Below are positions 18,129 through 53,951 of a stretch of 64,000 nt of DNA, piece by piece (the first letter of the stretch is position 1; each line of letters starts with the position of its first letter). The stretch is from the NCBI GenBank assembly GCA_014729025.1, contig WJKP01000011.1, positions 6,500 to 70,499 of the forward strand, given 5' to 3'. Under the pieces are notes generated by a model. It did not search any database. It had not been told where the DNA came from and saw only the letters and a program-made list of their open reading frames with translations. The translations under genes and the position numbers were made by a program. This DNA comes from Candidatus Buchananbacteria bacterium (GTDB lineage Bacteria; Patescibacteriota; Patescibacteriia; CAIXNZ01).

Positions 18129-18169
18129 TATTATATAAAGAAAATTCTAATAGTAATTTAAAATTTATA

Positions 18170-18646: not shown

Positions 18647-18650
18647 AATC

Positions 18651-18851
18651 ATGAGGATTATTAAGTTTAATAAAAAGATATACAGACCTGAAGCAATCAA
18701 ACAAGCGATTAATGATTTTAAAAATTTGGCCAATTTTAAATTAAAAGAAAACAGTGATTATATTGAAATAAAGATAAATAAAATAGATCAGGATTATAAA
18801 GATATTTTAAAAGATGAATTTGCCAATTATGCGCTTGGTTTAATGTCTTAA
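18651..18851 (+). CDS. Small protein, possible HxsD-like component of the His-Xaa-Ser system
   Basis: 66 aa, directly upstream of the SPASM rSAM. C-terminal 'ILKDEFANYALGL' loosely resembles the LLNDYxLRE signature I recall for the TIGRFAMs HxsD family. Weak. Confidence 0.35.
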   Translation: MRIIKFNKKIYRPEAIKQAINDFKNLANFKLKENSDYIEIKINKIDQDYKDILKDEFANYALGLMS

Positions 18852-18887: not shown

Positions 18888-20372
18888 ATGTTGGATTTAC
18901 AAACGATTAAAAAATTAAATGATAAACAGGCCGGATTCTTCCGTTTTAAAAAATTTGAAAATGACAATTATTTATTGACCAATGACATCGGCCATTACAT
19001 TTTTTTGCCAGAAACAGATTTTAAAAAATATATTCATGGCCGACTGGATAAAAAAAGCAAGCTTTATCAAAAATTAAAACAAAAATTATTTATTAAAGAT
19101 GAGGATTACCTTAAAAATTTCATTTGGCAGTATCGTCAGCGCAATTCTTTTTTGAAATACGGGCCGTCTTTGCATATTGTGGTTGTAACTTTAAGATGCA
19201 ATCATCGCTGTATTTATTGTCATGCCAGCGCTGCAACATGTAAAGATAAGAAATACGATATGGATCTAAAAACAGCCAAACTGGTAGTTGATACTATTTT
19301 TAAATCCAATAATAATGCGATTTGCATAGAATTTCAGGGTGGTGAACCGCTTTTAAACTGGCCAGTAGTAGAATTTATTATCAATTATGCTCAGGAAAAA
19401 AACAAATTAGAGAAAAAAAATTTAATTTTTCGGTTAGTTTCCAATTTTACTTTATTAGACCAAAAGAAAATGAATTTTTTAATGACTAATGAAGTTAATT
19501 TTTGTACATCCTTGGACGGTGACGAATCGACTCATAATTATAATCGTATTTTTACTGACGGTAATAGTTATAAAGAAACAGTAAAATGGATTAAAAAAAT
19601 CAATCAGGCTTATAAAGATAAATATAAAGGCAAAAAGAAAAATTATTATCGGGTAGGCGCTTTGATTACAGTAACTCGTAAAACTTTGGCTAATTATAAA
19701 CAGGTTATTGATACTTATATAAAGTTGGGTTTTCGGAACATTTATTTGCGTTATTTAAATCCTTTTGGCTTTGCTTTGCAAGCCAAAGAAAAAATATGGT
19801 ACAATCCTAAAGAATATATTGATTTTTATAAAAAAGCTTTTGATTATATTTTGGAAAAAAATTATCAAGGCAGGCATTTTTATGAAAGCATGGCAGCGAC
19901 TTATTTAAGAAAGATACTAAATCAGGAAGAACCGAATAATTTGGATTTCCGTTCGCCTTGCGGGGCAGTGATCGGTCAATTGGCTTATAATTACAATGGC
20001 GATGTTTATACTTGTGATGAGGGGCGGATGATTGCCAGGATGGGCGGTGATGAGATGTTTAAATTGGGTAATATAAAAAAAAATTCATTGGAAGAATTAA
20101 TTAATAATGATTTGTGTAAATCCGTTTGTTTTGCTTCGTGTGTTGATGGTTTACCGGGGTTTAGTGAAAACGTTTATAAACCTTATTTGGGTATTTGTCC
20201 GGTTTATAATTATTCCGTGCACGGTAATATTTTTCCAGCAATGAAAAATAATTTCCGCTGGCAAATAGATGAAGCAATTGTAGAATATTTATTTACTAAG
20301 CTTCAAAATAGAAAAAATCAGGATATTTTCCAAGAATGGGTCAAAAAATCAAAACCCCCGATTCCCAAATAA
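18888..20372 (+). CDS. Radical SAM/SPASM-domain peptide-modifying enzyme (anSME-like; candidate HxsB-type maturase)
   Basis: 'TLRCNHRCIYCHA' (CxxxCxxC). 'FQGGEPLL'. C-terminal SPASM-like Cys cluster 'SPCGAVIGQLAYNYNGDVYTCDEG...CKSVCFASC...GICPV'. Directly upstream of the repeat peptide. Confidence 0.8.
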   Translation: MLDLQTIKKLNDKQAGFFRFKKFENDNYLLTNDIGHYIFLPETDFKKYIHGRLDKKSKLYQKLKQKLFIKDEDYLKNFIWQYRQRNSFLKYGPSLHIVVVTLRCNHRCIYCHASAATCKDKKYDMDLKTAKLVVDTIFKSNNNAICIEFQGGEPLLNWPVVEFIINYAQEKNKLEKKNLIFRLVSNFTLLDQKKMNFLMTNEVNFCTSLDGDESTHNYNRIFTDGNSYKETVKWIKKINQAYKDKYKGKKKNYYRVGALITVTRKTLANYKQVIDTYIKLGFRNIYLRYLNPFGFALQAKEKIWYNPKEYIDFYKKAFDYILEKNYQGRHFYESMAATYLRKILNQEEPNNLDFRSPCGAVIGQLAYNYNGDVYTCDEGRMIARMGGDEMFKLGNIKKNSLEELINNDLCKSVCFASCVDGLPGFSENVYKPYLGICPVYNYSVHGNIFPAMKNNFRWQIDEAIVEYLFTKLQNRKNQDIFQEWVKKSKPPIPK

Positions 20373-20386
20373 TAAAATATAAATAT

Positions 20387-20839
20387 ATGAAAAATAAACT
20401 TCCCAAATTAAAGAAAAAATTTCAAGAATTTTTAAATGATGAAGAAGGGCGCATTACTAAAAAAGATATTATTATGCTAGGTATTGGCGTGACTGCTTTG
20501 GGTATTTTAGCCGAAGAAGCCGAAGCTTATAATTGCGGGCAATTGCCAGGCGGTTTAAGTAATAAAACCCCCAATCCGTGCGGTTCTCAACCTATGAGGC
20601 CAAATTCGCATACGACTTGCTGTAATATTAAACATTGTGGTAACAATGGTTACGAAAATGACAACTATAATGAGTTAATCGGCGATGTTAATCATAGTTG
20701 GGATCATAATAATTATATTCATAATAATGCCGAGGTTGGTACTCATTGTTCACATGGTTCGCACGGTTCGCATGGCTCGCATGGTTCGCACGGTTCACAT
20801 GGCTCGCATGGTTCGCACGGTTCGCATGGCTCATATTAA
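20387..20839 (+). CDS. His-Xaa-Ser-type repeat peptide/protein (candidate RiPP-like precursor, HxsA-like)
   Basis: Start at MKNKLP (20387). Basic N-terminus, one TM helix '[15 protein letters not shown]', a Cys/Asn-rich middle (6 Cys) and a C-terminal '[28 protein letters not shown]' (nine SHG units). Encoded by a 9-bp tandem repeat with synonymous codon variation. Confidence 0.7.
20749..20835 (+). repeat. 9-bp tandem repeat (about 9.5 copies) encoding the (Ser-His-Gly)n tail
   Basis: tcRcaYggY units: cat/cac, ggt/ggc, tcg/tca alternate. Synonymous variation argues for maintained coding repeats, not an artefact. Confidence 0.9.
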
Positions 20840-26524: not shown

Positions 26525-27862
26525 ATGGTTAAAAATAATTTATTAATTAAGGAAAAAATAGCTAGTAAACCGAAGTATTGGCTTAGGTTGAGTTATGCTT
26601 GTAATAATAATTGTTTGTTTTGTTTAGATAAAGAGGCACAAAGTAATAATGAGCAATTTGTTTCAGAAAAAGATTTGCAATCAGAAATAAAGCAAGCTTT
26701 AAAAGAAGGATATCGGAAAATTATTTTAAGTGGAGGTGAACCAACAATTCATCCTCGTTTTTTGCATCTTGTGAAATTTTGTCAAAATTTAGGTTTTGAA
26801 AGAATTCAAATTATTACTAATGGCAGAATGTTAGCTTATCGTAAATTTGCCAGACAAACCTTGATAAGCGGGGTCAATGAAGTGACTTTTTCTTTGCATG
26901 GACTTGATGCACAAACCCACGATTATTTAGTCGGAGTTGAAGGAGCTTATGATCAATTAATTCAGGGGTTACATAATATTCGAGCGTCTAATTGCATTAT
27001 AAATATTGATATTGTACTTAATAAAAAAAATATTAAGCAGGTTCATGAGATTATTGATTTTTTTTCTAAAAATTATAGTATTTATGAATATGATCTTTTA
27101 CATTTAATACCTTTTGGTAATGCTTTTAAAAATTTATCAAATTTGGTTTTATCATATAAAGATTATCAGCAAAAAAGCTGGCAGAAAGTTTTGACTTTGG
27201 CAAAGAATGATAAGAGATATTTTATTTGGACTAACCGCTTGCCAGCCCAATATTTAGAAGACCATGAAGCTTTAATCCAAGACCCCCATAAATTATCGGA
27301 TGAATTAAAGGGGCGAAGGCATATGTTTGAAAATTATTTGCAAAATAACAAAGAGCTTGCTTGTAAAGATGGTCAACGTTGTGCTTTTTGTTTTTTGCAT
27401 GATTTTTGTTTGAAGTTATCTCAGTTTAAGGAGAATATTAATTATAAACCTAAATATAATATTAAATTTTTAACTCAAAAAAATTTAAATGAATTAAATT
27501 CTAATAATTTAATTGTAGCAATTAAAAATTTTGAGTTTTTGGAAAAGTTAAAAGACCAAACAGTTAATCTGGATGAGTTCAAGAATAAGACTAAAAACGG
27601 AAATTTAAAATTTATTAATTTACCTTATTGTCTAGCTGGCCAGAATAATCAAGTTGTTTATGATTTTTTGATTTATTTGCCAAAAGTTTTGAATAACAAA
27701 AAACAGATTGATTTGCATAAATTTGCCAAAATGTATATTAGCAATTTATATTATTTGAAATCAGTGAGGTGTGATGATTGTAAATACAATAATCAATGCG
27801 CTGGTTGGCATATTAATTATTTAAGATATTATGGTTTTAAAATTTTAAAACCAGTTAAATAG
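26525..27862 (+). CDS. Radical SAM protein, tandem paralog 1, with C-terminal Cx2Cx5C twitch-like motif and extra Cys-rich insert
   Basis: 'LRLSYACNNNCLFCLD'. 'LSGGEPTIHP'. 'ITNGRML'. C-terminal 'LPYCLAG...CDDCKYNNQCAGWHINYLRYYGF'. Confidence 0.8.
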   Translation: MVKNNLLIKEKIASKPKYWLRLSYACNNNCLFCLDKEAQSNNEQFVSEKDLQSEIKQALKEGYRKIILSGGEPTIHPRFLHLVKFCQNLGFERIQIITNGRMLAYRKFARQTLISGVNEVTFSLHGLDAQTHDYLVGVEGAYDQLIQGLHNIRASNCIINIDIVLNKKNIKQVHEIIDFFSKNYSIYEYDLLHLIPFGNAFKNLSNLVLSYKDYQQKSWQKVLTLAKNDKRYFIWTNRLPAQYLEDHEALIQDPHKLSDELKGRRHMFENYLQNNKELACKDGQRCAFCFLHDFCLKLSQFKENINYKPKYNIKFLTQKNLNELNSNNLIVAIKNFEFLEKLKDQTVNLDEFKNKTKNGNLKFINLPYCLAGQNNQVVYDFLIYLPKVLNNKKQIDLHKFAKMYISNLYYLKSVRCDDCKYNNQCAGWHINYLRYYGFKILKPVK

Positions 27863-27863
27863 T

Positions 27864-28751
27864 ATGAAAGAAAAAAGACTGGAAATTTTCATAACTTTTA
27901 AGTGTAATAACGATTGTCTTTTTTGCGTGGAAAAAACAAATAAGGATAAATATAAGGGTAAACAAATTTTTAGGGATAAACAGCATATTGAAGAAGAATT
28001 GAATAAATATCGCAAGCAAGGTTACACTTATTTGAATTTATTAGGCGGGGAACCTTTTTTAGCGAAAGATTTTTCGACTATTTTGCAGACCTCCAAATCC
28101 TTGGGTTTTGTTGTGGCCTTAGCGACAAATGCCAGTGTCTTATCTTCAGAAAAAATAGCCGAACAATATTTGCCATATATTGATGAATTAATTGTTTCAA
28201 TTCATGGCCATAATAAATTATTAATTAATCAGATTAGTCAAAATCCTAATTTGTATGATAAGTTAATTAAAGGTTTGAATAATATTAAAAAATATTTTAA
28301 AGGCCGGTTATTAAAAGCAAATTGCGTGATTAATAATTTAAATCATAAATATTTACTTGATATTTTAAAATTTATAAATAAATTCAATATAAAAGAAGTT
28401 AATTTAACTTATATGGATATTGATAAATATTGCCAAAATTATGTTGTTAAGATGGAAGATTTGCGTCCTTTGATTAAACCTTTGGTTGATTATAGTGAAC
28501 AACAAAATATGGTTTTGCGTTTTTCTGAATTACCATATTGTGTTTTAGGCGATTATTATTATCTGGCTAATGATTTGTATTTTCAAAATCGGGATAAGTA
28601 TTTTGTTGATGGCAAAAAAGACAAGGTTTATTTTTGGAAAAAATATAAAGGCAAAGTTTGTCAGGATTGCAATGTTACGGATATTTGTAAGGGGCTAAAC
28701 AAGGATTATTATAAACTTTATGGTGATAAAGAATTAATTGCTTTTCAATAA
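27864..28751 (+). CDS. Radical SAM protein, tandem paralog 2
   Basis: 'ITFKCNNDCLFCVEK'. 'LLGGEPFL'. C-terminal 'LPYCVLG...CQDCNVTDICKGLNKDYYKLYG'. Confidence 0.8.
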   Translation: MKEKRLEIFITFKCNNDCLFCVEKTNKDKYKGKQIFRDKQHIEEELNKYRKQGYTYLNLLGGEPFLAKDFSTILQTSKSLGFVVALATNASVLSSEKIAEQYLPYIDELIVSIHGHNKLLINQISQNPNLYDKLIKGLNNIKKYFKGRLLKANCVINNLNHKYLLDILKFINKFNIKEVNLTYMDIDKYCQNYVVKMEDLRPLIKPLVDYSEQQNMVLRFSELPYCVLGDYYYLANDLYFQNRDKYFVDGKKDKVYFWKKYKGKVCQDCNVTDICKGLNKDYYKLYGDKELIAFQ

Positions 28752-29700
28752 TATGAAAAATTTGGAAATAAATATTGGCAAGGCTTGTAATAATAAATGT
28801 AAATTTTGCATGAGTATAAATTCTATTCCTGAATTTTTGCGTTTTGCTGATTTTGCAGATTTAAAAAATGATTTAATTAAATACAAAAAACAAGGTTATG
28901 ATTCTTTGGGTTTTTTGGGCGGGGAAGTCACTTTGTACCCCAAATTAGTTGATTTGGTTAATTTAGCTAAAGAATTAGGATTTAAAGAAATTCATTTGAT
29001 TACTAATGGTCGGAATTTAAAAGACATGGCTTATACGCAGTCCTTGGTTGAAAATGGTATAACTCGTTTTTCTTTATCAATTCATAGTCATTGCGCCCAT
29101 GTAGAAGATGACTTGACTCAAGTTCCTGGTGGTTTTAAGGAAAAAATTCAAGGCCTTAAAAATTTATTAGAATTATCTAATCAAGGAATAATAAAAAAAG
29201 AGATTTGTTTGAATTTGGTTGTTAATAAAAAAAATTATCAAGATTTGGTAAAAACATTCAGTTTTTTTAGCAAATTAGGTGTTAAAAATTTTCGTTTTAA
29301 TTTTATGTGGCCCAGAGGTAATGCAAGTCAATATTTCAAAGAACTTTTGCTTTCTTATAAAGATTTTTTGCCTTATTTAAAGAAATTAATAAATTTAGCC
29401 AAAGTTTTAAGAGTACATTTAGTTTTTGAGGGATTGCCATTTTGTATTTTAAAAGATTTTGATCAAAAAGAAATTAAAAATTATATCGGTGAATTATTGG
29501 ATTTTAAAACTGATGTTTCTGATTTTAATTTTGATAAAAAAGAACGTTATGCTTTTAATTGGCAAGAACGCAAGAAAAACGAATTAAAAGAAAAAAGAGC
29601 AGAATGTGAGAAATGTTTTTATAATTCCATTTGTGAAGGTGTTTGGAAAGAATATATAAAATTTTATGGTTGGGAAGAATTTCAGCCAGTTATTAAATAA
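28738..29700 (+). CDS. Radical SAM protein, tandem paralog 3
   Basis: 'NIGKACNNKCKFCMS'. 'FLGGEVTLYP'. 'ITNGRNL'. C-terminal 'LPFCILKDF...CEKCFYNSICEGVWKEYIKFYGW'. Alternative start at 28753 (MKNLEI). Confidence 0.8.
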   Translation: MLFNNMKNLEINIGKACNNKCKFCMSINSIPEFLRFADFADLKNDLIKYKKQGYDSLGFLGGEVTLYPKLVDLVNLAKELGFKEIHLITNGRNLKDMAYTQSLVENGITRFSLSIHSHCAHVEDDLTQVPGGFKEKIQGLKNLLELSNQGIIKKEICLNLVVNKKNYQDLVKTFSFFSKLGVKNFRFNFMWPRGNASQYFKELLLSYKDFLPYLKKLINLAKVLRVHLVFEGLPFCILKDFDQKEIKNYIGELLDFKTDVSDFNFDKKERYAFNWQERKKNELKEKRAECEKCFYNSICEGVWKEYIKFYGWEEFQPVIK

Positions 29701-29702
29701 TT

Positions 29703-30632
29703 ATGGCAAATTTAGGTTATATTCAATTAAATAGAGTTTGTAATCAAGCCTGTCTTTTTTGTTCCAATCCTGATACTGGGGCAAGCTTAAATTTTATTGA
29801 ATTTAAGGATAAGGTTGCAGATTTGATTAAAAGAAATTATGATGGAGTTATTTTAACCGGCGGCGAGCCGACCTTGATAGATTATTTGCCAGAAGCAATT
29901 AAATTTTGCACTGAGAAGAAAATTAATTCTCGTTTAATTACTAATGGGCAAAATACAGCTAATTTTGAATATTTGAAAAAGTTAAAAGATTCTGGTTTGA
30001 ATCTGATGCATGTTTCTTTATATTCTTATAAAACTAAAATTCAAAATTATTTAAGTCAAAATAATGATTCTTATAATAATATTATTAAGACTTTAAAAAA
30101 TGCAACTAAATTAAATATCGTAATTAATATTAATACTGTAATTAATAAGTATAATGCTGATCATTTGGATAAAACCGTTTTTTTTATAATAAGAAATTTT
30201 CCGCAAATAAAGCATTTTGTTTTTAATAATCTTGACCCATATATGAATCGAGCTTCGCAGAATAAACATACCATACCAGGTTTATTTGATTTTGAAATAT
30301 CATTAAATAAAGCAATGCAAATATTATTTAAAAATAATAAAACTTTTCGGGTAGAACGAGTACCTTTATGTTATATGGGCGATTTTCCGCAGTTTAGCAC
30401 TGAAACAAGAAAAATTATTAAACAAGAAGAAAGAGTTGTTCATTTTTTGGATGAAAAGGGTCTGATTAGGCAGGATACCGATTCATTTAAATATAAAAAA
30501 GGTAAAGTTTGTAAAAGATGTAATTTAAATGATATTTGTGCCGGCTTATATTCTTTAGGTGAATATTTTGCGGAAAAAGAATTAAAGCCTGTCAAGAATG
30601 TTACTAAAGAACAAGTTAAAGCAAAATTATGA
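29703..30632 (+). CDS. Radical SAM protein, tandem paralog 4
   Basis: 'QLNRVCNQACLFCSN'. 'LTGGEPTL'. 'ITNGQN'. C-terminal 'VPLCYMGDF...CKRCNLNDICAGLYSLGEYF'. Confidence 0.8.
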   Translation: MANLGYIQLNRVCNQACLFCSNPDTGASLNFIEFKDKVADLIKRNYDGVILTGGEPTLIDYLPEAIKFCTEKKINSRLITNGQNTANFEYLKKLKDSGLNLMHVSLYSYKTKIQNYLSQNNDSYNNIIKTLKNATKLNIVININTVINKYNADHLDKTVFFIIRNFPQIKHFVFNNLDPYMNRASQNKHTIPGLFDFEISLNKAMQILFKNNKTFRVERVPLCYMGDFPQFSTETRKIIKQEERVVHFLDEKGLIRQDTDSFKYKKGKVCKRCNLNDICAGLYSLGEYFAEKELKPVKNVTKEQVKAKL

Positions 30633-31309
30633 ATATTGATTTATTAACAAAATGCGAATGTAATTGTGTTTTTTGTGATAAGCAGACTGTTAAGGGTGTT
30701 GAATCTATTAATGAACTAAAAGATATTTTGGAGGATTTTAATGAGTCAATAATTTTTTTAGGTGGACAAGAACCATTTAATTTTAAGGATTTAGATTTAT
30801 TAATTGCTTTTTTAAAAAATAAAGCGCCTGATAGCAAAATAATAATAAAATCTTCAGGTTGTTTTGATTATAAAAAATTGCCCCGGGTTTTATTTGAAAA
30901 AATCGAGATAATAGAATTGCCATTATATTCTTGCTCAAGTGAAATACACAATAAAATAATGGGGAATAATCAGGCTTGGGAACTGCTTTTTGCTTTTGTT
31001 GATTTTTTAAAAGAAAATAATTTACAGAATAAAATTTTGTTTCATACAATGGTTTTAAAGGATAATTTTAAAGAATTATTTGCTATTTATGATTTTGTTT
31101 TAGACAATTTACCTGATCAGCAGTATTTTAAGATTATTTACCCCTTGAAAAATATAAGTAAAATAGAATATGAAAAAATTATTGTACCGCAAGATTTAGT
31201 TATTAAGCAGCTATTTGCTGATTTCCCAGAAGATATATTGCAAAATAAAATTGAATTAATAAATTTCCAACCTTCTAAAGAACAAATTAAATTTAGAAAT
31301 GTTTTATAA
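30629..31309 (+). CDS. Small radical SAM-like protein (mini-rSAM, 226 aa)
   Basis: 'LTKCECNCVFCDK' contains CxxxCxxC. 'FLGGQEPF'. No C-terminal auxiliary Cys motif. Confidence 0.6.
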   Translation: MNIDLLTKCECNCVFCDKQTVKGVESINELKDILEDFNESIIFLGGQEPFNFKDLDLLIAFLKNKAPDSKIIIKSSGCFDYKKLPRVLFEKIEIIELPLYSCSSEIHNKIMGNNQAWELLFAFVDFLKENNLQNKILFHTMVLKDNFKELFAIYDFVLDNLPDQQYFKIIYPLKNISKIEYEKIIVPQDLVIKQLFADFPEDILQNKIELINFQPSKEQIKFRNVL

Positions 31310-31314
31310 ATTTT

Positions 31315-33105
31315 ATGAGTCGTGTTGATATAAAAATAGGTTTTGCTTGCAATAATATGTGCCAATTTTGTGTGCAAGGAGATAAAAGGTTTAAATTTAA
31401 AAACCGTACGCTTAATGAAATAAAAAAAGCGTTAAAAACAGCTAACGCGCAAGGCAGTCAGGGGGTTGTTTTTACTGGTGGTGAACCAACATTACATGAC
31501 AATATTTTAGAGGCAGTTAAGTATGCTAATGATTTAGGTTTTCAATCAATTCAGTTGCAAACTAATGGTCGGATGCTGGCTTATTTTGGTTTTTGTCAAA
31601 AATTAATAAAAGCCGGTATAAATGAATTTTCACCAGCCTTGCATGCTTCAATACCCCAAATTCATGATGAATTAACCAGTAGTCCTGGCGCTTGGGAACA
31701 AGTTGTACAGGGTATTAAAAATTTAAAATTATTAAATCAGTTTGTTTTAACAAATACTGTGATAACCAGCAAGAATTATAAAGATTTACCTGCTTTAGCC
31801 AAGTTATTTATTGATTTGGGCGTGGATCAATTCCAGTTTGCTTTTGTTCATATTTTGGGCAGCGCAGCTCAGCATAAAGACTGGCTGGTGCCTCAAAAAT
31901 CAGAGATTATGCCTTACGTAAAAAAGGGGTTAGATGTTGGCATTAAAGCAAACAAGAGGGTTATGACAGAAGCAATTCCGTATTGCTTAATGACTGGTTA
32001 TGAGGATTACATTGCAGAAAAGATAATGCCTGAAACACAAGTTGTTGATGCTGAAGGCGTGATCGCCAGTTATGCTAAATATCGGCATACAGAAGGTAAG
32101 GTTAAGAGCAAAGAATGTGAGACATGCAAATATTTTAAAATTTGCGAAGGTCCGTGGAAAGAATATCCGGAAATTTACGGTTGGAATGAATTTATACCAA
32201 TAAAGAAATTATCAATAAATAAAAAAAAACAAATAAATAATAATTTTAAAAAAAATAAAAATGATATAGCCTTTTTTAATTTTGTTGGTAAATTTAATTT
32301 AATTGATTTTAAGGAGTATTTGCCAAATTTAATCTCATTTAAAATAATAAAAAATGAAAAAAATAGTTATTGCGTATTATTAAAAAATGGCGATGATGAT
32401 GTTTTTTTAAAAACTTATCGATGGCAAGGGAATAAATTTTATAATTTTGTTAAAATTTATAATTCTTTATCAAAAGAAATCAATTTGCCACAGATAATCT
32501 CTATATCTGATTTTGTCGTGCCAGAAACAAATGAAAAAATTTTCCTTGTATTAACTGACTACCTGAAAGATTTGGTTAATAATAAAGATAAATTTAAAGA
32601 AGCAAATCTTAAATTAATAATTGATCAGGTCGTAAGATTGCATCAAATTGATAATGTTATTATTAAAAATAATATGTTTAATAATAAATTTTTTTTAGAT
32701 CAAATGATTATAAAAAATAATCCCATTGATATTAATAAAATCATTTATTATTTAAAAGATAAGCTTGATAAAATTTCAGCCCAGGGTTTGTGTCATTTTG
32801 TTTTAAAACCTGAACATTTTATTTTTAATAAAAATAAAGTATACATGATTGATCTTGATAATATAAGTTATGATTATTTGATATTCGATTTAGCTGCTTT
32901 AATTGAAAGATTTTTATATAAAGATAAATATTCTTATACAAGAAAATATCTAAAAGATTTTGTAACATTATATTTTAAAAAAAATAAAAAAGTTAAATTT
33001 AATAAGAATGTATTGTATCAAGCCTGTAAGTTGATGGCTTATTATCAAAATGGTAGAGCTTTTCAGGATTTTGGACCGCTTGATGAATTTTTCAATGAAT
33101 TATAA
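31315..33105 (+). CDS. Radical SAM (paralog 5) fused to a C-terminal kinase-like (APH/WaaP-like phosphotransferase fold) domain
   Basis: N-terminal domain: 'IGFACNNMCQFCVQG', 'FTGGEPTLH', 'QTNGRML', 'IPYCLM...CETCKYFKICEGPWKEYPEIYGW'. C-terminal 300 aa: 'GLCHFVLKPEHFIF...VYMIDLDNISYDYLIFDLA', paralogous to 34627-35901. The catalytic-loop Asp is replaced (HFV instead of HFD). Confidence 0.75.
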   Translation: MSRVDIKIGFACNNMCQFCVQGDKRFKFKNRTLNEIKKALKTANAQGSQGVVFTGGEPTLHDNILEAVKYANDLGFQSIQLQTNGRMLAYFGFCQKLIKAGINEFSPALHASIPQIHDELTSSPGAWEQVVQGIKNLKLLNQFVLTNTVITSKNYKDLPALAKLFIDLGVDQFQFAFVHILGSAAQHKDWLVPQKSEIMPYVKKGLDVGIKANKRVMTEAIPYCLMTGYEDYIAEKIMPETQVVDAEGVIASYAKYRHTEGKVKSKECETCKYFKICEGPWKEYPEIYGWNEFIPIKKLSINKKKQINNNFKKNKNDIAFFNFVGKFNLIDFKEYLPNLISFKIIKNEKNSYCVLLKNGDDDVFLKTYRWQGNKFYNFVKIYNSLSKEINLPQIISISDFVVPETNEKIFLVLTDYLKDLVNNKDKFKEANLKLIIDQVVRLHQIDNVIIKNNMFNNKFFLDQMIIKNNPIDINKIIYYLKDKLDKISAQGLCHFVLKPEHFIFNKNKVYMIDLDNISYDYLIFDLAALIERFLYKDKYSYTRKYLKDFVTLYFKKNKKVKFNKNVLYQACKLMAYYQNGRAFQDFGPLDEFFNEL

Positions 33106-33111: not shown

Positions 33112-34623
33112 ATGATTGATATATATTATAAAAAAGAACTTCAGAGTATTATTGCACCCATGCAGATAGGGCGCCAATATTTTAATTGGGATTTTAAGAA
33201 AATCATTTTAAATCGTATCGGCCCCTATTTTTTACAGGAAATAATTTTTTATTTTTTAAAAGATAATAATAATGCGTTAATGATATATTTGAGAAAAAAT
33301 AATGAATATTATCAATTGGATTACCAAGTTTTAAATGATGAATTATCAGCAAAAAAAATTTTTATTTTATTTGATAATTTATTAATAAAAAAACAAATTA
33401 TTCTTGAAAGAAGTTTAGTTTTTGCAGCCTTGCAAAACAATGAAAAAAATTTTTTAAATCGATTATCTCAAATTGATGAGAAAGAATTAATCAAATTATT
33501 ATCATTACCAGAGATTAAATTTATAAATAATAATGTAGAAGATAGTGATATTAAAATTTTATTTGATTTTAATTTAAATAGTTTTGGCCTTGGCGATTAT
33601 TTGATGAGCGATAGGAGTTTAATTAAAAATGGTTCAAATAATTTTATAATAACTGATTTGTATTCAGTTTTTGAGGGTAATAAAAATTTCAATGCTATTT
33701 ATTCGGATTTGAATTTATGTTTTTCTGAAAATGGGTTATTAGATAAGACCGTTGAACTTATTGATTATAACACCAAGCTTGATTATTTGGATGAAAATTT
33801 AAAAAATACTTATCATTTATTTTTATATAATCAATTTTATAAATTAATAAAAAATTCTTTAAAATTATTTAATTTTAAAGAATACCAGATGAATCCTCAA
33901 AAAGGGATTGATTTGTTATTATCAGAAATTAATAAAATAAAGAAAATAAATATACATTCCTTAGATTCCATGAATGATGAGAAAAATGAATTATATTTAA
34001 ATAATAAAGAATTTATAAAAATTATTGGTAAGCAAATTAAAAAAAATAAAAAAATCATTGGGATTAGCGCAAATTATGCCGAAGGTTTTCCTGATAATGC
34101 GCCTAAAGGCTGGGCCTTGGCTAATTGGTTGGAATTAATTAATTTATTAAGTCAAAAATTTAATGATTTGCATTTTTTTTTATTGCCAGTTAATAATGAA
34201 GATATTTTAAATATAGAAATATCTGAAAATAATTATCATTTTAAAATATTTAATAATTTAAAAGATAAAGTTGATTTGGTTTTTATTGATGAATTGATTA
34301 AAAAATATATTTTTAAAAAAAGCATATTTGATAATATTTTATTAAAAAATACAAGTTTAGAATTTTTAAAAACAGCAATAAGTTTTTGTGATTTGGTAAT
34401 AGCTTTGGATAGTGCTCCGGCTCATATGGCTGCTTCGCTAGAAGTGCCTGTTGTTTCTTTGTTTAGTGAAAAAGGCGATATTAGAAAATTCAAGCCATTG
34501 GGTGATAAATCTTTTACCTTGCATAAAGAAAAAGAAGGGGAATATTTAAATATTAATAATATTTCAGCTCAAGAAGTTTTTGATCTATTAATTAAAGAAA
34601 ATTTAATTATCAAACGAAAATAA
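33112..34623 (+). CDS. Glycosyltransferase family 9-like protein (heptosyltransferase / BAHT-type GT-B fold)
   Basis: C-terminal domain 'KIIGISANYAEGFPDNAPKGWALANWLELINLL...LVIALDSAPAHMAASLEVPVVSLFS' matches the GT9 donor-binding motif (D-S/T-G-P-M-H-L-A-A-A...P-V-V-A-L-F-G). The N-terminal 300 aa are divergent. Confidence 0.55.
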   Translation: MIDIYYKKELQSIIAPMQIGRQYFNWDFKKIILNRIGPYFLQEIIFYFLKDNNNALMIYLRKNNEYYQLDYQVLNDELSAKKIFILFDNLLIKKQIILERSLVFAALQNNEKNFLNRLSQIDEKELIKLLSLPEIKFINNNVEDSDIKILFDFNLNSFGLGDYLMSDRSLIKNGSNNFIITDLYSVFEGNKNFNAIYSDLNLCFSENGLLDKTVELIDYNTKLDYLDENLKNTYHLFLYNQFYKLIKNSLKLFNFKEYQMNPQKGIDLLLSEINKIKKINIHSLDSMNDEKNELYLNNKEFIKIIGKQIKKNKKIIGISANYAEGFPDNAPKGWALANWLELINLLSQKFNDLHFFLLPVNNEDILNIEISENNYHFKIFNNLKDKVDLVFIDELIKKYIFKKSIFDNILLKNTSLEFLKTAISFCDLVIALDSAPAHMAASLEVPVVSLFSEKGDIRKFKPLGDKSFTLHKEKEGEYLNINNISAQEVFDLLIKENLIIKRK

Positions 34624-34626
34624 TTT

Positions 34627-35901
34627 ATGGAAATTGGGATTAGAGATAAAAATGAAAACGATTTAGTCAAAAAAATTATTAATTATAATAAAATTAATAA
34701 TTTAGTAAAACCGATAAAAAGATATGAAATTACGGCGATTGATTTGGTTAATAAAAATTTATATTTAAAAATAAAAAATAACGAGACAGGTGATGTTTTG
34801 CGAATAGTTTTAACTACCAATAAGAGGAAAGATTTATTAAGTATAGATAATAAATTGTTTTTTTACTATTACTCAGATTATTTGAATAAATTTGATAATT
34901 TGCTTTGTAAAAATATAATGAAAATCATGTATAGTAATATTAATAATAATCGAGAATTATTTAATACTGCCATTGATTTAATAAAAAATGAAAATATTTT
35001 TGATAGAGATTTTGAATATTTTGAGGATGAAGATACCGGGCGTAAATTACAAGTAAATAAAAAAAATATAGCGAAATTAGAAAAAAATATTAATTTAAAT
35101 TTAATAAAAAACAAATGGCCCAATATGAATGTTGCTAATGAAATATTTAGTTATGATGAAACAAGACTTCGTTATAAATTAATTGATAAAAATAATCAAG
35201 CTTATTTTTTGAAAATTTTTACCGGTGCCAATAATGATATTGATAATTTAATAAAAATAAATAAATTATTAGCTGATAAAATAAATGTGCCGAAGGTTAT
35301 TGATTTTCAAAAAGATGATAAGTTTTATTGGGTATTATATGAATTTTTAGATCCCGCCAAGATTCTTGATAAACAAAAAATAAATTTAGCAGTTAAAGAA
35401 ATAGTAAAATTTCATAATGTTAAGTTTGATATGGGAAATCAACCAGAAGGTAGTAAATTTAATAAAGTTAAAAATAATTATTATTTATATAAAGAAGAAA
35501 TTATTGATAAGGATATTTTAGAAAAAGCATTAAATTATTTGCAGAATAATCTTGGCCCAAAAGGTTGGTGCCATTTTGATTTAGAAATGAGGCATTTTAT
35601 TTATTCTAATGATAAAATGTATTTAACTGATATTGATTCTATTAAATATGATTATATAGTTTTAGATCTCGGTTTATTTATTCGCTATTTACTTAAAAAA
35701 AATCAGTCGCATTTCATAGCGCCATTAATTGAATTATATTTAAAAAATAATAAGTCTTATAAATTTGATAAAAAAATATTATTTTATGCCACTATTATTA
35801 TGGTATATTATAAAGAGGATGAAAATTTAATTAGTAATCATAATTTACATAAAAATTTGAATCAAGAAATTAATTTAATTAGAAATTATTTTAATATTTA
35901 A
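34627..35901 (+). CDS. Kinase-like protein (APH/WaaP/Kdo-kinase-like phosphotransferase fold)
   Basis: 'GWCHFDLEMRHFIYSNDKMYLTDIDSIKYDYIVLDLG' gives H-x-D catalytic loop plus a DID metal-binding motif. Paralogous to the C-terminal domain of the rSAM fusion. Confidence 0.5.
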   Translation: MEIGIRDKNENDLVKKIINYNKINNLVKPIKRYEITAIDLVNKNLYLKIKNNETGDVLRIVLTTNKRKDLLSIDNKLFFYYYSDYLNKFDNLLCKNIMKIMYSNINNNRELFNTAIDLIKNENIFDRDFEYFEDEDTGRKLQVNKKNIAKLEKNINLNLIKNKWPNMNVANEIFSYDETRLRYKLIDKNNQAYFLKIFTGANNDIDNLIKINKLLADKINVPKVIDFQKDDKFYWVLYEFLDPAKILDKQKINLAVKEIVKFHNVKFDMGNQPEGSKFNKVKNNYYLYKEEIIDKDILEKALNYLQNNLGPKGWCHFDLEMRHFIYSNDKMYLTDIDSIKYDYIVLDLGLFIRYLLKKNQSHFIAPLIELYLKNNKSYKFDKKILFYATIIMVYYKEDENLISNHNLHKNLNQEINLIRNYFNI

Positions 35902-35903
35902 AT

Positions 35904-37412
35904 ATGATACAATTAATTATAAATTATTCTATTGTTTCGCTTATTATTATAATAGGTTTGATAGTTACCCTTACTGATTTTCGAGAAAGCAGAATAAAGA
36001 ATAAATATATTAAATTAGGGATTTATATAGGGTTAATTTATTATATTATATTATTTTTCATTACTGTTTTGTCGCGTTTTTATGCTTTATCTTATTATTT
36101 CCCCCCTCAATATTATTTATTTATTTTAATTAATACTTTAATTGGTTTTATTTTGGCTTTTATTTTGTGGAATCTTAAATTATGGGCCGGAGGCGATGCC
36201 AAGCTTTTTACCCTTTATGTTTTTTTAATACCTTTATTTTTTTATTCAGAAGCATATTTGCCATTTTTCCCAGCTATTAATTTATTAATAAATATAATAA
36301 TTCCTATTTTTATTTATTTATTAATTAAGATGTTAATTTATCCAATCAGCTTATTTATTAGTCATTTGAAAAATCCCAAATTGGTCAAGGAATATTTTAA
36401 AAAACATAGAGAACAAAATAAGTTTGATAAATCAAAAATAAAAGAATATCTAAATAGTGGTCTTAGTTTTTTATTAATTTTAATTTTTTTCCAATTATTA
36501 AGAAATAAAGTTAATGAATTTTTAGATCCTTATTTGGGTAATATGGTTTATGCCACTTATTTTTTTATGGGTTTTGTTATTTTTAAACCATTGAGAGTTT
36601 TTTTAAAAGAAAAAGTTTTGCTTGTTTTAATTGGTGTATCGGCTTATTTTATTATTAGTTACTTTTATTTTCATGAACAGGTTTTTGCAGAATTGCATAA
36701 AGTTTTTGCCTTGCAAATGATTTTTATGATGTCTTATTTTTATATTTTTAAATATGGCCGAGCTTTGGGACAATTTTTATATAATTCAGCAGAAGTTAAA
36801 ATGGTTCCGGTTGAAGAATTAAGTTCTGGCAATTATATTAATAAAGGTTACATAAGAAAAATAATGGGGAATAGGAATAATTTAGATAATTTCAAACAAG
36901 ATATTGAAAATGTTTTGTCAGAAGAAGAACATAATAACTTAGCCCAATTGATTGAGGAAAAGGTGGGGCAAACTGGTAATGAAAAAAAACAATATAAGAT
37001 AATTTCTGTTTTCAGGAATTTACGTCCAGAGAGTGCTTTTAAAATTGCAAAACAGATATTTGAATATAAAAAACAAAAAAAACAAAGAAAAGAATTACTG
37101 GAAACAGTAAAAATAAAATTAAATGATAAGCAGAATAAGACCTTAGATAATATTTTAAATAACAATGATGATATTGATAATTTTTTAAAAAAAATTAAGG
37201 GGAAATTAAGCGAAGAACAAGCTCTAAGATTAAAAAGCATGATTGAAGAAAGGAATAAAGAGGTTGAGGATCAGGGCTTAGAGCCGATTAAACATATTAT
37301 ACTTCATAAAACATTTTCTTTTGCGCCTTTTATGTTATTGGGCGTTATAATTACTTTATTAACCAAAAGTTCAATTATTCATTTGATTTATGAATATATT
37401 TTGCACCGTTAG
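35904..37412 (+). CDS. A24-family (prepilin peptidase/TadV-like) aspartic peptidase homolog with long C-terminal Lys/Glu-rich coiled-coil domain
   Basis: First catalytic-Asp motif 'LTDFRESRIKN' (cf. D-L-R-x-R-R-I-P-N). Second 'LWAGGDAKLFTLYVFLIPL' (cf. GGGDVKLL). About 8 TM helices in the first 290 aa, then a 200-aa charged cytoplasmic tail and a final TM helix. Confidence 0.6.
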   Translation: MIQLIINYSIVSLIIIIGLIVTLTDFRESRIKNKYIKLGIYIGLIYYIILFFITVLSRFYALSYYFPPQYYLFILINTLIGFILAFILWNLKLWAGGDAKLFTLYVFLIPLFFYSEAYLPFFPAINLLINIIIPIFIYLLIKMLIYPISLFISHLKNPKLVKEYFKKHREQNKFDKSKIKEYLNSGLSFLLILIFFQLLRNKVNEFLDPYLGNMVYATYFFMGFVIFKPLRVFLKEKVLLVLIGVSAYFIISYFYFHEQVFAELHKVFALQMIFMMSYFYIFKYGRALGQFLYNSAEVKMVPVEELSSGNYINKGYIRKIMGNRNNLDNFKQDIENVLSEEEHNNLAQLIEEKVGQTGNEKKQYKIISVFRNLRPESAFKIAKQIFEYKKQKKQRKELLETVKIKLNDKQNKTLDNILNNNDDIDNFLKKIKGKLSEEQALRLKSMIEERNKEVEDQGLEPIKHIILHKTFSFAPFMLLGVIITLLTKSSIIHLIYEYILHR

Positions 37413-38844: not shown

Positions 38845-38848
38845 GCTT

Positions 38849-39391: not shown

Positions 39392-39535
39392 TTTACTTAT
39401 TTTTTGTCTAAAATAATAATAAATTTTTAGTATATTATTTTTTTAAAATAATATAATTAGGTTTAGTAAATTTAGTTTAAATTTTTGATTAAATATGGTA
39501 TAATTTGAACTATAATAGAGTTAAATTTAAATCAA

Positions 39536-40066: not shown

Positions 40067-40068
40067 AA

Positions 40069-50294: not shown

Positions 50295-50298
50295 TAAT

Positions 50299-52299: not shown

Positions 52300-52303
52300 A
52301 TAA

Positions 52304-52341: not shown

Positions 52342-52395
52342 TGACGCAACCTTGCTAGGGAGTCCAGGCTGGTTAGTAGGCAAACTGTAGATAAC

Positions 52396-53940: not shown

Positions 53941-53951
53941 ATTTTTTAAAG

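What the first reader, a model, noticed from the sequence alone, without database searches (positions are those of the whole stretch)
35904..37412. A24 prepilin-peptidase-like membrane protease with a 200-aa charged coiled-coil extension closing the rSAM operon
Seen in sequence: both catalytic-Asp motifs of the A24 family are recognisable (TDFRESRIKN; WAGGDAKL) within an 8-TM core. The C-terminal 200 residues are Lys/Glu-rich and coiled-coil-like, and end with another TM helix. That extension is atypical for PilD/TadV. The gene abuts the kinase-like gene (35901/35904). Inference: it is a candidate leader- or anchor-processing protease for the TM-anchored repeat peptide (RiPP clusters normally encode a dedicated protease). 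Alternatively it is the organism's type IV pilus prepilin peptidase, placed here by coincidence.
Basis: partly seen in the sequence, partly recalled or inferred. Interest (0 to 1): 0.55.

Follow-up and report, generated by a model that had tools for sequence, protein, structure and literature searches.

The report
Dedicated membrane protease of His-Xaa-Ser systems
This gene encodes a membrane aspartic protease of the prepilin-peptidase (A24) family that travels across many bacterial and archaeal phyla with radical-SAM "His-Xaa-Ser" gene clusters, not with pilus genes. It is probably the missing enzyme that trims the conserved N-terminal leader of the repeat protein those clusters mature.

Summary
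The ORF at 35904-37412 (502 aa) is real and belongs to the A24 family: Pfam 28.2 bits against a cut-off of 26.5, and D25 and D98 (GGDAK) are invariant in 119 relatives. The charged helical "extension" is an insertion. The last TM carries an FAPxxxLG motif that aligns, weakly, with the C-terminal FGPxxxLG of E. coli GspO.

The upstream cluster is a variant His-Xaa-Ser (Hxs) system with HxsD, HxsB, an (HGS)9 precursor and many HxsC-like rSAM genes. The canonical HXS was shown in 2026 to be an antiphage system whose effector needs N-terminal cleavage by an unidentified protease.

- **Forward test.** Of 72 related loci, 68 carry HxsC-like rSAM genes. These loci come from CPR bacteria, DPANN archaea, Clostridia, Omnitrophota, Myxococcota and others, and the peptidase often overlaps HxsD or HxsC.
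- **Reverse test.** Starting from precursors, 5 of 6 loci contained the peptidase.
- **Leader.** These precursors share PKIKKKIxxFLxxEEG|xIS(K/R)…G plus a hydrophobic helix, which resembles Flp prepilin leaders. Canonical HxsA loci have neither this leader nor the peptidase.

Best reading (confidence about 0.6): a dedicated Hxs precursor peptidase. The exact cleavage site is not determined. A coincidental housekeeping PilD is effectively excluded. I found no publication or curated model for this family, so I rate it a new variant of a known kind.

The parts
35904..37412 (+). Hxs-associated A24-family aspartic peptidase gene (502 aa, 10 predicted TM helices)
   Evidence: ORF. Pfam PF01478 at 28.2 bits against a cut-off of 26.5. 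33 full-length homologues at 47-61% identity in CPR metagenomes. AF2 pLDDT 91.5.
35973..36002 (+). First catalytic-Asp motif TDFRESRIKN (D25 = 35976-35978), at the cytoplasmic end of TM1
   Evidence: D25 is invariant in 21 and in 119 sequences. Compare GspO 'IDFRTQ'.
36183..36206 (+). Second catalytic motif WAGGDAKL (GxGD-type; D98 = 36195-36197), at the cytoplasmic start of TM4
   Evidence: G97 is nearly invariant; D98 and K100 are invariant.
36429..36788 (+). Four additional TM helices (aa 176-295) inserted after the A24 core; they follow a Lys-rich cytoplasmic linker (aa 156-175)
   Evidence: Hydropathy and positive-inside analysis. AF2 helices 176-211, 214-235, 238-255 and 257-295. Present throughout the 300-420 aa family.
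36789..37307 (+). Cytoplasmic soluble domain (aa 296-468, 36% charged). Family-wide anchors are E297..G309, L435-K444 and the beta strands 298-302 and 464-468. About aa 320-425 is a subfamily-specific helical expansion.
   Evidence: Two family members hit Pfam Arc_PepC (archaeal A24 C-terminal domain, best E 4.4e-6) and one hits Arc_PepC_II.
37308..37409 (+). Last TM helix with the invariant HKTFSFAPFMLLG motif, equivalent to the C-terminal FGPxLxLG helix of prepilin peptidases
   Evidence: Invariant in A1. hhalign against E. coli GspO residues 200-217, E 0.025.
20336..20839 (+). Presumed substrate, an HxsA3/A4-like precursor (probable start M18 at 20387). Leader [18 protein letters not shown] (G38 = 20447-20449); second conserved Gly G49 (20480-20482); hydrophobic helix; AEA|Y; Cys-rich middle; (HGS)9 tail at 20744-20836.
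   Evidence: Partial NCBIfam hits to HxsA4 and HxsA3. Leader profile and logo.
18098..18851 (+). HxsD (18098-18646) and an HxsD-like protein (18651-18851)
   Evidence: TIGR03976 58.8 bits against a cut-off of 50; NF038315 81.4 bits against 41.
18888..20372 (+). HxsB radical SAM/SPASM maturase
   Evidence: TIGR03978 514.9 bits against a cut-off of 370.
26525..33105 (+). Array of six tightly packed HxsC/HxsC4-like radical SAM genes; the last is fused to an APH-like domain
   Evidence: Pfam Radical_SAM hits. Best NCBIfam match is HxsC4 at 160 bits, below the cut-off of 500. The same paralogue set precedes the peptidase in CPR and Myxococcota loci.
33112..35901 (+). GT9-like gene (33112-34623) and APH/kinase-like gene (34627-35901) between the rSAM array and the peptidase. 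They are genome-specific accessories, absent from the three close relatives inspected.
   Evidence: The relatives lack them.

Best explanation
**What it is.** The gene encodes a GxGD-type (MEROPS A24) intramembrane-face aspartic peptidase. It is a dedicated component of variant His-Xaa-Ser (Hxs) radical-SAM maturation systems, not of a type IV pilus.

**Proposed mechanism** (shown steps and inferred steps are marked):
1. The Hxs precursor (window 20387-20839) carries a conserved basic/acidic N-terminal leader, (I/L/F)PKIKKKIxxFLxxEEG-xIS(K/R)xxILx(V)G, followed by a hydrophobic helix and the HxS repeats. This is shown.
2. The leader stays in the cytoplasm. The repeats are modified by HxsB and the HxsC-like rSAM enzymes, with HxsD assisting. 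This is inferred from the E. coli HXS work.
3. The helix inserts N-in/C-out, like a class III (prepilin/Flp-type) signal. This is inferred.
4. The peptidase has both Asp residues on the cytoplasmic membrane face and a cytoplasmic domain next to them (predicted). It cuts after a conserved Gly, either the Flp-like EEG| (G38 in the window precursor) or the (V/L/I)G|(S/A) at the start of the helix (G49). This removes the leader. It is inferred.
5. The HxS-repeat product then stays anchored by the helix, or is released outside by signal peptidase I at the AxA-like site that follows the helix in most precursors. This is inferred.

The extra ~90-aa Lys/Glu-rich helical expansion in this Parcubacteria subfamily is a lineage-specific elaboration of the cytoplasmic domain. 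It is plausibly a docking surface for the leader or the maturases.
For: **A24 identity**
- Pfam hit above the cut-off.
- D25, D98 and K100 are invariant in 119 diverse sequences.
- 101 of 119 members hit PF01478, and 3 hit archaeal A24 C-terminal domain models.
- The C-terminal FAP helix aligns with GspO FGP.

**Linkage to Hxs, forward direction**
- The distant homologues P0037 and P0038 sit beside HxsC/HxsB (325 and 514 bits) and HxsB/HxsD respectively, with no cysS nearby.
- Among 72 non-redundant loci with a family score of at least 100 bits, 68 contain HxsC-like rSAM genes. Only 1 of 7 loci of unrelated low-scoring A24 genes do (Fisher p = 5e-6).
- 21 loci have HxsD within 65 nt of the peptidase gene, and about 28 have an HxsC-like gene within 60 nt, often overlapping it.
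- Taxa include Patescibacteria, Omnitrophota, Clostridia, Desulfosporosinus, Myxococcota, Planctomycetia, Elusimicrobia, DPANN archaea and Methanosarcinales.

**Linkage to Hxs, reverse direction**
- A leader profile found 372 precursor-like proteins.
- 5 of 6 long-contig look-ups had the peptidase 0.7-4.3 kb away.

**Substrate logic**
- In 33 distinct leaders, the E two residues before the first Gly is 33/33. That Gly is G 31/33 and A 2/33. The second Gly is G 30/33.
- The layout resembles Flp prepilin 'FLKDESG|ATAIEYGLI'. I recalled that sequence from memory; residues 1-21 of it matched an annotated Flp pilin at 90.5% identity. Removal of the Flp leader at the GXXXXEY motif by TadV is described in PMC10934763.
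- Canonical Klebsiella and Leptospira Hxs loci have HxsD/B/C but no such leader and no peptidase. The leader therefore tracks the peptidase, not HxsB or HxsD.

**Biological need**
- E. coli HxsA requires a non-canonical N-terminal cleavage for antiphage activity, and the responsible protease is unidentified (PMC13128918).
Against: - There is no biochemical evidence. Cleavage, the site and even catalytic activity are inferred.
- The residues after the first conserved Gly are polar or basic (xISK), unlike the hydrophobic +1..+5 of classical prepilins.
- No Pfam Flp_Fap similarity was detected.
- Most precursors (25 of 31) also have an AxA-like signal peptidase I site after the helix. SPase I alone could therefore release the product, leaving the A24 enzyme a different role.
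- One reverse-test locus (L093, Omnitrophota) showed no peptidase in the sequence available: ~5 kb upstream to the contig end and 10 kb downstream.
- One forward locus (L022) showed no rSAM gene within 10 kb upstream.
- In this window the peptidase lies 15 kb from the precursor, and cysS follows it with a 22-nt gap. CPR-internal synteny alone would therefore be ambiguous.
- Whether the genome has another A24 peptidase could not be tested.
Confidence: 0.6

Rival explanations
1. The substrate is the same but the step differs. The enzyme acts like a signal-peptide peptidase. After signal peptidase I releases the HxS-repeat domain at the AxA site, it cleaves the remnant long leader/signal peptide. 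This would clear the membrane or release the leader-bound HxsD and maturases.
For: 25 of 31 distinct precursors have an [AVSTG]xA site right after the hydrophobic core. In Clostridia that site sits directly before the first HRSHSS repeat. A24 and SPP/presenilin share the GxGD mechanism and act on N-in helices (established knowledge). The tight A24-HxsD adjacency would fit leader or HxsD recycling.
Against: No A24 enzyme is known to work this way. The AxA assignment is by eye and regex, not by a trained predictor. The conserved Gly residues are equally explained by direct leader removal.
Confidence: 0.2
2. It is simply the organism's housekeeping type IV pilus/Tad prepilin peptidase, placed next to the rSAM cluster by chance.
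For: It is an A24 family member, and NCBI annotates some homologues as 'prepilin peptidase'. CPR bacteria commonly have type IV pili (general knowledge). I could not search the whole genome for a second A24 gene.
Against: The family is linked to Hxs/rSAM genes in about 10 phyla including Archaea, often with overlapping reading frames. No pilin, PilB/PilC or Tad genes appear in any of the Pfam-annotated neighbourhoods. No pilin-like ORF or second family member is found in the 64-kb window. It lacks the PilD N-terminal domain and has 4 extra TMs plus a soluble domain.
Confidence: 0.05
3. It is mainly a membrane scaffold or exporter for the modified peptide. The extra four TMs and the cytoplasmic domain dock the rSAM maturases and hand the product to the outside. 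Proteolysis would be secondary or lost.
For: The family-specific additions (4 TMs, a cytoplasmic domain, and a charged expansion in this subfamily) are not needed for A24 catalysis. The E. coli authors postulate dedicated accessory translocators for HxsA.
Against: Both catalytic Asp residues, the GxGD lysine and the FAP helix are invariant or nearly so across 119 divergent sequences. That argues for retained catalysis.
Confidence: 0.08
4. It processes a different cluster-encoded membrane protein rather than the HxS-repeat precursor. Candidates are the N-terminally anchored 499-aa protein at 21805-23304 or its counterparts in related loci.
For: Single-TM proteins of unknown function follow the precursor in the window and in L003.
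Against: These proteins are not conserved across the phyla that share the peptidase (no family hits). The compact Clostridial and DPANN operons contain only the precursor, HxsD, the peptidase and rSAM genes.
Confidence: 0.05

Closest known systems
TadV/CpaA, the Flp (type IVc) prepilin peptidase (MEROPS A24)
   Same: Both are short-form A24 enzymes without the PilD N-terminal methyltransferase domain. Both have two catalytic Asp residues. The presumed substrate has a basic leader ending in an acidic-acidic-Gly motif, a polar stretch of about 6 residues, then a hydrophobic helix. Compare FLxxEEG|xISK.. with FLKDESG|ATAIEY...
   Different: TadV has about 5-6 TMs and ~150-170 aa (from my own knowledge). 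This protein has 10 TMs and a 173-aa cytoplasmic domain. It is encoded with radical SAM maturases, not with Tad secretion genes. The substrate lacks the GXXXXEY Glu-Tyr and carries His-Xaa-Ser repeats. No HMM-level similarity between the leader and Flp_Fap was found.
FlaK/PibD/EppA, archaeal preflagellin/prepilin peptidases with a soluble domain (Pfam Arc_PepC / Arc_PepC_II)
   Same: Both have an A24 core, a soluble domain inserted before the last TM helix or helices, and a GxGD second motif. A few family members hit Arc_PepC (E 4.4e-6) or Arc_PepC_II.
   Different: No detectable sequence match to any solved structure. Foldseek gave no match with E <= 0.001 even with the confident model. This family has four additional TM helices. 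Its context is Hxs rather than archaellum or pilus genes.
HXS antiphage system of E. coli/Klebsiella (HxsA-D; Li et al., Nat Commun 2026, PMC13128918)
   Same: HxsB and HxsD pass their curated NCBIfam cut-offs here. The effector has HxS repeats; the HRSHSS core is identical in the Clostridial precursors and Klebsiella HxsA. N-terminal processing of the effector is essential in the characterised system.
   Different: The canonical system has four genes, a short Sec signal on HxsA and a peptidoglycan-binding domain, and its protease is unknown. The variant systems have a long conserved leader, no such domain seen in the precursors inspected, often many HxsC paralogues, and this dedicated A24 peptidase. 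The paper reports 99.7% of its HxsA-based hits in Pseudomonadota and does not mention a peptidase. Antiphage function of the variant systems is untested.
Signal peptide peptidase / presenilin (A22 GxGD proteases)
   Same: Both are polytopic GxGD aspartic proteases acting on N-in/C-out helices, with a conserved Pro-containing motif in the last helix (PAL compared with FAP/FGP).
   Different: No sequence relationship was tested or claimed. A22 enzymes cut inside the bilayer after ectodomain shedding, whereas A24 enzymes cut at the cytoplasmic face.

Membership tests
Peptidase family A24 (Pfam PF01478, type IV leader peptidase) | Match to the family HMM above the curated gathering score | tested here: met
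   28.2 bits against a cut-off of 26.5, E 2.8e-6, aa 13-133. 101 of 119 relatives match at E <= 0.01, best 9.7e-10.
Peptidase family A24 | Two catalytic aspartates, the second in a G-x-G-D motif, conserved in homologues | tested here: met
   D25 and D98 (WAGGDAK) are invariant in alignments of 21 and 119 sequences. They are similar to GspO IDFRTQ and GYGDFK.
Peptidase family A24 | Polytopic membrane protein with both Asp residues at the cytoplasmic membrane face | tested here: met
   This is a prediction only. It rests on hydropathy, positive-inside loops and AF2 helices, which place D25 at the inner end of TM1 and D98 at the inner start of TM4. No experimental topology exists.
Peptidase family A24 | Conserved C-terminal helix with an F-(G/A)-P-x-x-x-L-G motif | tested here: inconclusive
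   hhalign aligns 468-485 HKTFSFAPFMLLGVIITL with GspO 200-217 ITTIAFGPWLALGSMINL. The statistics are weak (E 0.025, probability 1.9%, single-sequence template). The motif is invariant in close homologues.
Peptidase family A24 | Endoproteolytic removal of a leader after Gly at the cytoplasmic face | not testable with these tools
   Requires co-expression and mass spectrometry.
PilD-type bifunctional prepilin peptidase (A24A) | N-terminal Cys-rich methyltransferase domain preceding the A24 core | tested here: not met
   TM1 starts at residue 2, and D25 lies 24 residues from the N-terminus. The only Pfam hit other than PF01478 is a sub-threshold EI24 match (18.8 bits against a cut-off of 32).
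Type IV pilus / Tad / archaellum processing peptidase (functional role) | Encoded with, or serving, pilin or archaellin genes and their assembly ATPase and platform | tested here: not met
   No pilin-like ORF or T4P gene was found in the window scan, nor in the Pfam-annotated neighbourhoods of 12 related loci. Whole genomes were not searchable.
His-Xaa-Ser (Hxs) system (NCBIfam TIGR03976-TIGR03979 and variants) | HxsB radical SAM/SPASM maturase present | tested here: met
   Window 18888-20372: TIGR03978 514.9 bits against a cut-off of 370.
His-Xaa-Ser (Hxs) system | HxsD present | tested here: met
   18098-18646: TIGR03976 58.8 bits against 50. 18651-18851: NF038315 81.4 bits against 41.
His-Xaa-Ser (Hxs) system | Precursor with His-Xaa-Ser repeats (HxsA) | tested here: inconclusive
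   20336-20839 ends in (HGS)9. It hits HxsA4 (48.9 bits against 55) and HxsA3 (45.3 bits against 65) only below their cut-offs. The leader matches the profile built from 33 such precursors.
His-Xaa-Ser (Hxs) system | HxsC radical SAM maturase present | tested here: not met
   No window protein reaches the TIGR03977 cut-off (best 89.1 bits against 267.9) or the HxsC4 cut-off (159.9 bits against 500). The six rSAM paralogues are HxsC-like only.

The most novel reading that the evidence does not exclude
Variant HXS-type systems are widespread in CPR bacteria, DPANN archaea, Clostridia and others. In this reading they use a dedicated, architecturally distinct A24 peptidase to process a class-III-signal-like leader on a radical-SAM-modified His-Xaa-Ser effector. 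That would make a non-pilin protein a substrate of prepilin-peptidase chemistry and identify the 'missing' HxsA-processing protease class. The helix-anchored product would sit on the outer face of the single membrane of these small cells. There it could act as the functional analogue of periplasmic HxsA, which blocks phage DNA entry.
Probability: 0.35. Interest if true: 0.78.

Novelty: new variant of a known kind. Interest (0 to 1): 0.62.

Why it matters
A24 peptidases are known for processing pilins, pseudopilins, archaellins and a few archaeal surface proteins. A large, cross-domain subfamily hard-wired to radical-SAM His-Xaa-Ser systems would add a new substrate class. The family has about 1,000 clusters at 50% identity.

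It would also supply a concrete candidate for a step that the 2026 HXS antiphage study left open: who cuts the effector's N-terminus.

The compact Clostridial five-gene operon is small enough to test directly. The result would extend HXS-like systems to CPR and DPANN organisms, where defence and surface biology are poorly understood. It also shows that 'prepilin peptidase' annotations in these lineages should not be read as evidence for pili.

Tried and rejected
- **Foldseek on the first AF2 model.** The model from 21 close homologues was poor (pLDDT 67.5), and its Foldseek search gave nothing.
- **Foldseek on the confident model.** The model from 119 sequences (pLDDT 91.5) also gave no PDB match with E <= 0.001. 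Structural similarity to FlaK therefore could not be demonstrated.
- **Sequence searches of the PDB.** Profiles A1 and A4 and an archaeal member found nothing significant. The hits were only E ~0.2-1 matches to nsp8 and MthK, which I treat as noise.
- **NCBIfam and PADLOC.** Neither has a model for the peptidase. PADLOC (2023) has no HXS models, and the rSAM genes only give generic pVip similarity.
- **Pfam on the precursor.** No Flp_Fap hit.
- **First genome-contig query.** A 10-sequence alignment worked.
- **Promoter and terminator scan.** Uninformative in this AT-rich DNA (59 promoter-like sites against 53.6 expected), with no terminator between the peptidase gene and cysS.
- **phmmer of E. 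coli GspO against window ORFs.** It found nothing, not even the target, so it is too insensitive to count as a test. My GxGD regex was also mis-specified and missed the target. The statement 'no second A24 gene in the window' rests on the family HMM.
- **CPR-internal synteny.** I rejected it as evidence on its own, because cysS, CorA and a DUF8128/TraG-like gene are equally conserved downstream. The decisive evidence came from other phyla.
- **YSIRK-type signal peptides.** I considered a resemblance between the 'xISK…G-S' segment and these signals. I set it aside because the spacing differs and I did not test it.
Full report
**1. The observation**

The ORF at 35904-37412 (+) is real: ATG start, 502 aa. 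The window is AT-rich (21-27% GC here). An identical protein is recorded from a Candidatus Buchananbacteria MAG on an 83-kb contig.

Pfam Peptidase_A24 matches aa 13-133 at 28.2 bits, just above the 26.5-bit gathering score (E 2.8e-6).

In 21 full-length homologues (47-61% identity, all about 500 aa, all from Patescibacteria-type metagenomes), D25, G96-G97-D98-A99-K100 and a C-terminal HK-F-FAP-MLLG block are invariant. In 119 diverse relatives, D25, D98, K100, P110 and Y114 remain invariant, and 101 of the 119 hit PF01478 on their own. The A24 assignment is therefore solid even though the single-sequence score is marginal.

**2. Anatomy**

Hydropathy with positive-inside analysis and a confident AlphaFold2 model built on the 119-sequence alignment (pLDDT 91.5, pTM 0.82) give ten TM helices: 2-28, 33-58, 68-90, 96-115, 125-155, 176-211, 214-235, 238-255, 257-295 and 474-500.

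The predicted topology has these features:
- The N-terminus is outside.
- D25 sits at the inner end of TM1 and D98 at the inner start of TM4.
- A Lys-rich cytoplasmic linker (aa 156-175, net charge about +6) follows TM5.
- A cytoplasmic soluble domain spans aa 296-468 (173 aa, 36% K/R/E/D).

That domain is predicted as several 8- to 29-residue helices framed by two short strands (298-302 and 464-468). It is not one long coiled coil.

The last helix is not an appendage. A profile-profile comparison with E. coli GspO gave a single local alignment, HKTFSFAPFMLLGVIITL against ITTIAFGPWLALGSMINL (GspO 200-217). The statistics are weak (E 0.025), but this is the conserved C-terminal helix of prepilin peptidases. 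The charged region, together with four extra TM helices, is therefore an insertion between the A24 core and its last helix.

A search of 1.84 billion representative proteins found 1,073 clusters with E <= 1e-3, of which 739 have E <= 1e-10. Most are 300-420 aa and share this layout with a shorter, ~85-aa soluble domain. Only about 90 aa (roughly 320-425) is specific to the ~500-aa subfamily. Two members hit Pfam Arc_PepC (4.4e-6) and one hits Arc_PepC_II. The soluble domain is therefore probably related to the one in archaeal FlaK-type enzymes.

**3. The cluster is a His-Xaa-Ser system**

NCBIfam identifies the following:
- HxsD at 18098-18646 (58.8 bits against a cut-off of 50).
- An HxsD-like protein at 18651-18851 (81.4 bits against 41).
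- HxsB at 18888-20372 (514.9 bits against 370).

The ORF at 20336-20839 ends in (HGS)9 and gives sub-threshold HxsA3 and HxsA4 hits. The six packed rSAM genes at 26525-33105 are HxsC/HxsC4-like but below their cut-offs.

A 2026 paper (PMC13128918) shows that the canonical four-gene HXS system of E. coli blocks phage DNA entry. It also shows that HxsA must undergo a non-canonical N-terminal cleavage that depends on HxsB, HxsC and HxsD, and the protease is not identified. The paper mentions no peptidase and reports 99.7% of its HxsA-based hits in Pseudomonadota.

**4. Does the peptidase belong to the cluster?**

Close CPR relatives always show a run of rSAM genes, then the peptidase, then cysS. 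That is ambiguous, because the downstream genes (cysS, CorA, a DUF8128/TraG-like gene) are equally conserved. Other phyla settle the question.

*Distant homologues.*
- P0037, from a low-GC metagenome contig, is followed directly by true HxsC (325 bits) and HxsB (514 bits) and preceded by a precursor.
- P0038 lies between an rSAM gene and an HxsD-HxsB-precursor block.
- Neither locus contains cysS.

*Forward scan.* A scan of one genome per GTDB species returned 80 loci. I scored them with my own HMMs for HxsB, HxsC, HxsD, the window's rSAM paralogues and the peptidase.
- Among 72 non-redundant loci with a peptidase score of at least 100 bits, 68 contain HxsC-like rSAM genes.
- 45 contain a specific Hxs marker.
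- Of the four loci without rSAM hits, two are cut short by contig ends and one has HxsB and HxsD anyway. Only L022 is a real exception.
- Seven low-scoring loci with unrelated A24 genes serve as a rough background, and 1 of these 7 has an rSAM hit (Fisher p = 5e-6).

*Gene order*.
- Clostridia: precursor-HxsD-peptidase-HxsC-HxsB, with overlapping reading frames.
- DPANN archaea: peptidase-HxsD-HxsB-precursor.
- CPR, Omnitrophota and Myxococcota: an array of HxsC-like paralogues followed immediately by the peptidase.
- HxsD lies within 65 nt of the peptidase in 21 loci.

*Reverse test.* A profile of precursor leaders found 372 proteins. Of six on long contigs, five had the peptidase 0.7-4.3 kb away (124-222 bits for L090-L092, 117-152 bits for L094 and L095). 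One Omnitrophota locus showed none in the sequence available.

No pilus or Tad gene appears in any annotated neighbourhood. The window holds no pilin-like ORF and no second family member.

**5. The presumed substrate**

Thirty-three distinct precursors from these loci share this N-terminus: (I/L/F)-P-K-I-K-K-K-I-x-x-F-L-x-x-E-E-G-x-I-S-(K/R)-x-x-I-L-x-V-G. A hydrophobic stretch and the HxS repeats follow.
- The Glu two residues before the first Gly is invariant (33/33).
- That first Gly is G in 31 and A in 2.
- The second Gly is G in 30 of 33.

A basic leader ending in acidic-acidic-Gly, then about six polar residues, then a helix, parallels Flp prepilins. I recalled the Flp N-terminus MTKFVTRFLKDESGATAIEYG from memory. 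Residues 1-21 matched an annotated 'Flp family type IVb pilin' at 90.5% identity. TadV removes the Flp leader at the GXXXXEY motif (PMC10934763). No HMM-level homology to Flp was found, so this is a resemblance and not membership.

Canonical Klebsiella HxsA has a short Sec signal (MKKFNFAALLPGFLALNNSVWA|SD…), no such leader, and an operon without the peptidase. A Leptospira variant is the same in both respects. Because HxsB and HxsD occur in both kinds of system, the leader tracks the peptidase rather than the maturases.

One complication remains. In 25 of 31 precursors an [AVSTG]xA site follows the helix, and in Clostridia it sits directly before the first HRSHSS repeat. Signal peptidase I may therefore also act on these proteins.

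**6. Mechanism proposed**

The leader stays cytoplasmic while the rSAM enzymes, with HxsD, modify the repeats. The helix inserts N-in/C-out. The peptidase has its two Asp residues and its cytoplasmic domain at the inner membrane face. It cuts after one of the two conserved Gly residues, G38 or G49 of the window ORF, and removes the leader.

The product then stays helix-anchored, or is released by signal peptidase I. The sequence features and the linkage are shown. Every catalytic step is inferred.

Rivals are listed with confidences in the report sections:
- an SPP-like clearance role after signal peptidase I (0.2);
- a scaffold or export role (0.08);
- another cluster substrate (0.05);
- a coincidental housekeeping PilD (0.05).

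**7. Comparison with known families, and novelty**

The protein passes the tests for A24 membership (HMM, both Asp motifs, predicted topology). It fails the tests for PilD-type architecture and for a pilus context.

It works most like TadV or FlaK but differs in three ways: four extra TMs, a cytoplasmic domain, and a radical-SAM context.

I found no NCBIfam or PADLOC model for it. I found no paper in the searchable library that links an A24 peptidase with Hxs or with rSAM-modified precursors. I therefore rate it a new variant of a known kind.

The target itself is one member of that variant, with a lineage-specific charged expansion.

**8. Limits**

- There is no biochemistry.
- The cleavage site is undetermined.
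- Whole genomes could not be searched for a second A24 gene.
- Structural similarity to FlaK could not be shown.
- The signal peptidase I site call is heuristic.
- Organism labels of several TPA MAG records are unreliable.

Noticed in passing
window 24756-26466 (- strand); L090 13160-14810; L091 13374-15117: A Peptidase_U32-family gene (309 aa; Pfam E 6e-29; closest NCBIfam TrhP/UbiU-like) sits with a 265-aa partner of unknown function, divergently, between the HxsD/B/A block and the rSAM array. The same pair lies next to the peptidase in two archaeal Hxs loci. U32 proteins of this type are O2-independent hydroxylases in other pathways (my own knowledge), so this may be a further modification enzyme and not a protease.
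   Followed up: partly
window 31315-33105, 33112-34623, 34627-35901: The last rSAM gene is fused to an APH/kinase-like domain. A GT9 (heptosyltransferase-like) gene and a stand-alone APH-like gene follow it. The three close relatives inspected lack the GT9 and stand-alone APH genes. One (L001) has an rSAM-HD fusion and a PEP-utilizers-like gene instead. The accessory enzymes vary between genomes.
   Followed up: partly
window 20519-20527; precursors in L045, L076, L080, L071 and others: Most HxsA3-type precursors have an AxA-like signal peptidase I site right after the hydrophobic helix. In Clostridia it sits directly before the first HRSHSS repeat. This suggests dual processing, by the A24 enzyme inside and SPase I outside.
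   Followed up: partly
L058 5018-10936 (also L038, L054, L061, L065, L067, L069): High-GC Myxococcota/Deltaproteobacteria loci carry the same four rSAM paralogues as the window. For example, 'MANLGYIQVTRLCNQKC…' corresponds to window 29703 'MANLGYIQLNRVCNQAC…'. A 455-aa family member follows them, with a long Ala/Gly/Pro-rich loop between TM2 and TM3. No HxsB, HxsD or leader-type precursor lies within 10 kb. The 'rSAM array + peptidase' block may be a module separable from HxsD/B/A.
   Followed up: partly
window 37435-42669; L001-L003 downstream regions: The order cysS, a small methyltransferase (or Dus), CorA (in relatives), a 176-aa acidic protein, and an ~860-aa DUF8128/TraG/TrwB-like ATPase is conserved downstream of the peptidase in all close CPR relatives. 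This is local synteny unrelated to Hxs.
   Followed up: no
L009 (CAZHFK010000007.1), L021, L025, L037: Several TPA MAG records are titled 'uncultured Gammaproteobacteria' or 'Rickettsiales'. They nevertheless carry proteins up to 68% identical to this CPR protein, with the same CPR-type rSAM array. The record taxonomy looks unreliable.
   Followed up: no
L005 946-1185; L092 10001-10180: In two loci the precursor ORF stops early, just after the hydrophobic helix or inside the first repeat. This probably reflects assembly collapse or a frameshift in the His-Xaa-Ser repeat DNA.
   Followed up: no
window 16443-18128: Two adjacent genes just upstream of HxsD encode Sec-signal proteins (266 and 290 aa) with Cys-containing C-terminal ends (…CCYLNIAF, …CCRIDNCPGGGGNCF). 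Their function is unknown and they were not examined.
   Followed up: no
window 36848-37240 (- strand): A 130-aa antisense ORF lies inside the peptidase gene. It is Phe/Leu/Ser-rich, as expected from the reverse complement of a Lys/Glu-rich AT-rich region, and is almost certainly not a gene.
   Followed up: no
window 50000-56000: GC skew turns negative where four genes lie on the minus strand (50983-55679). Everywhere else genes and skew are on the plus strand.
   Followed up: no
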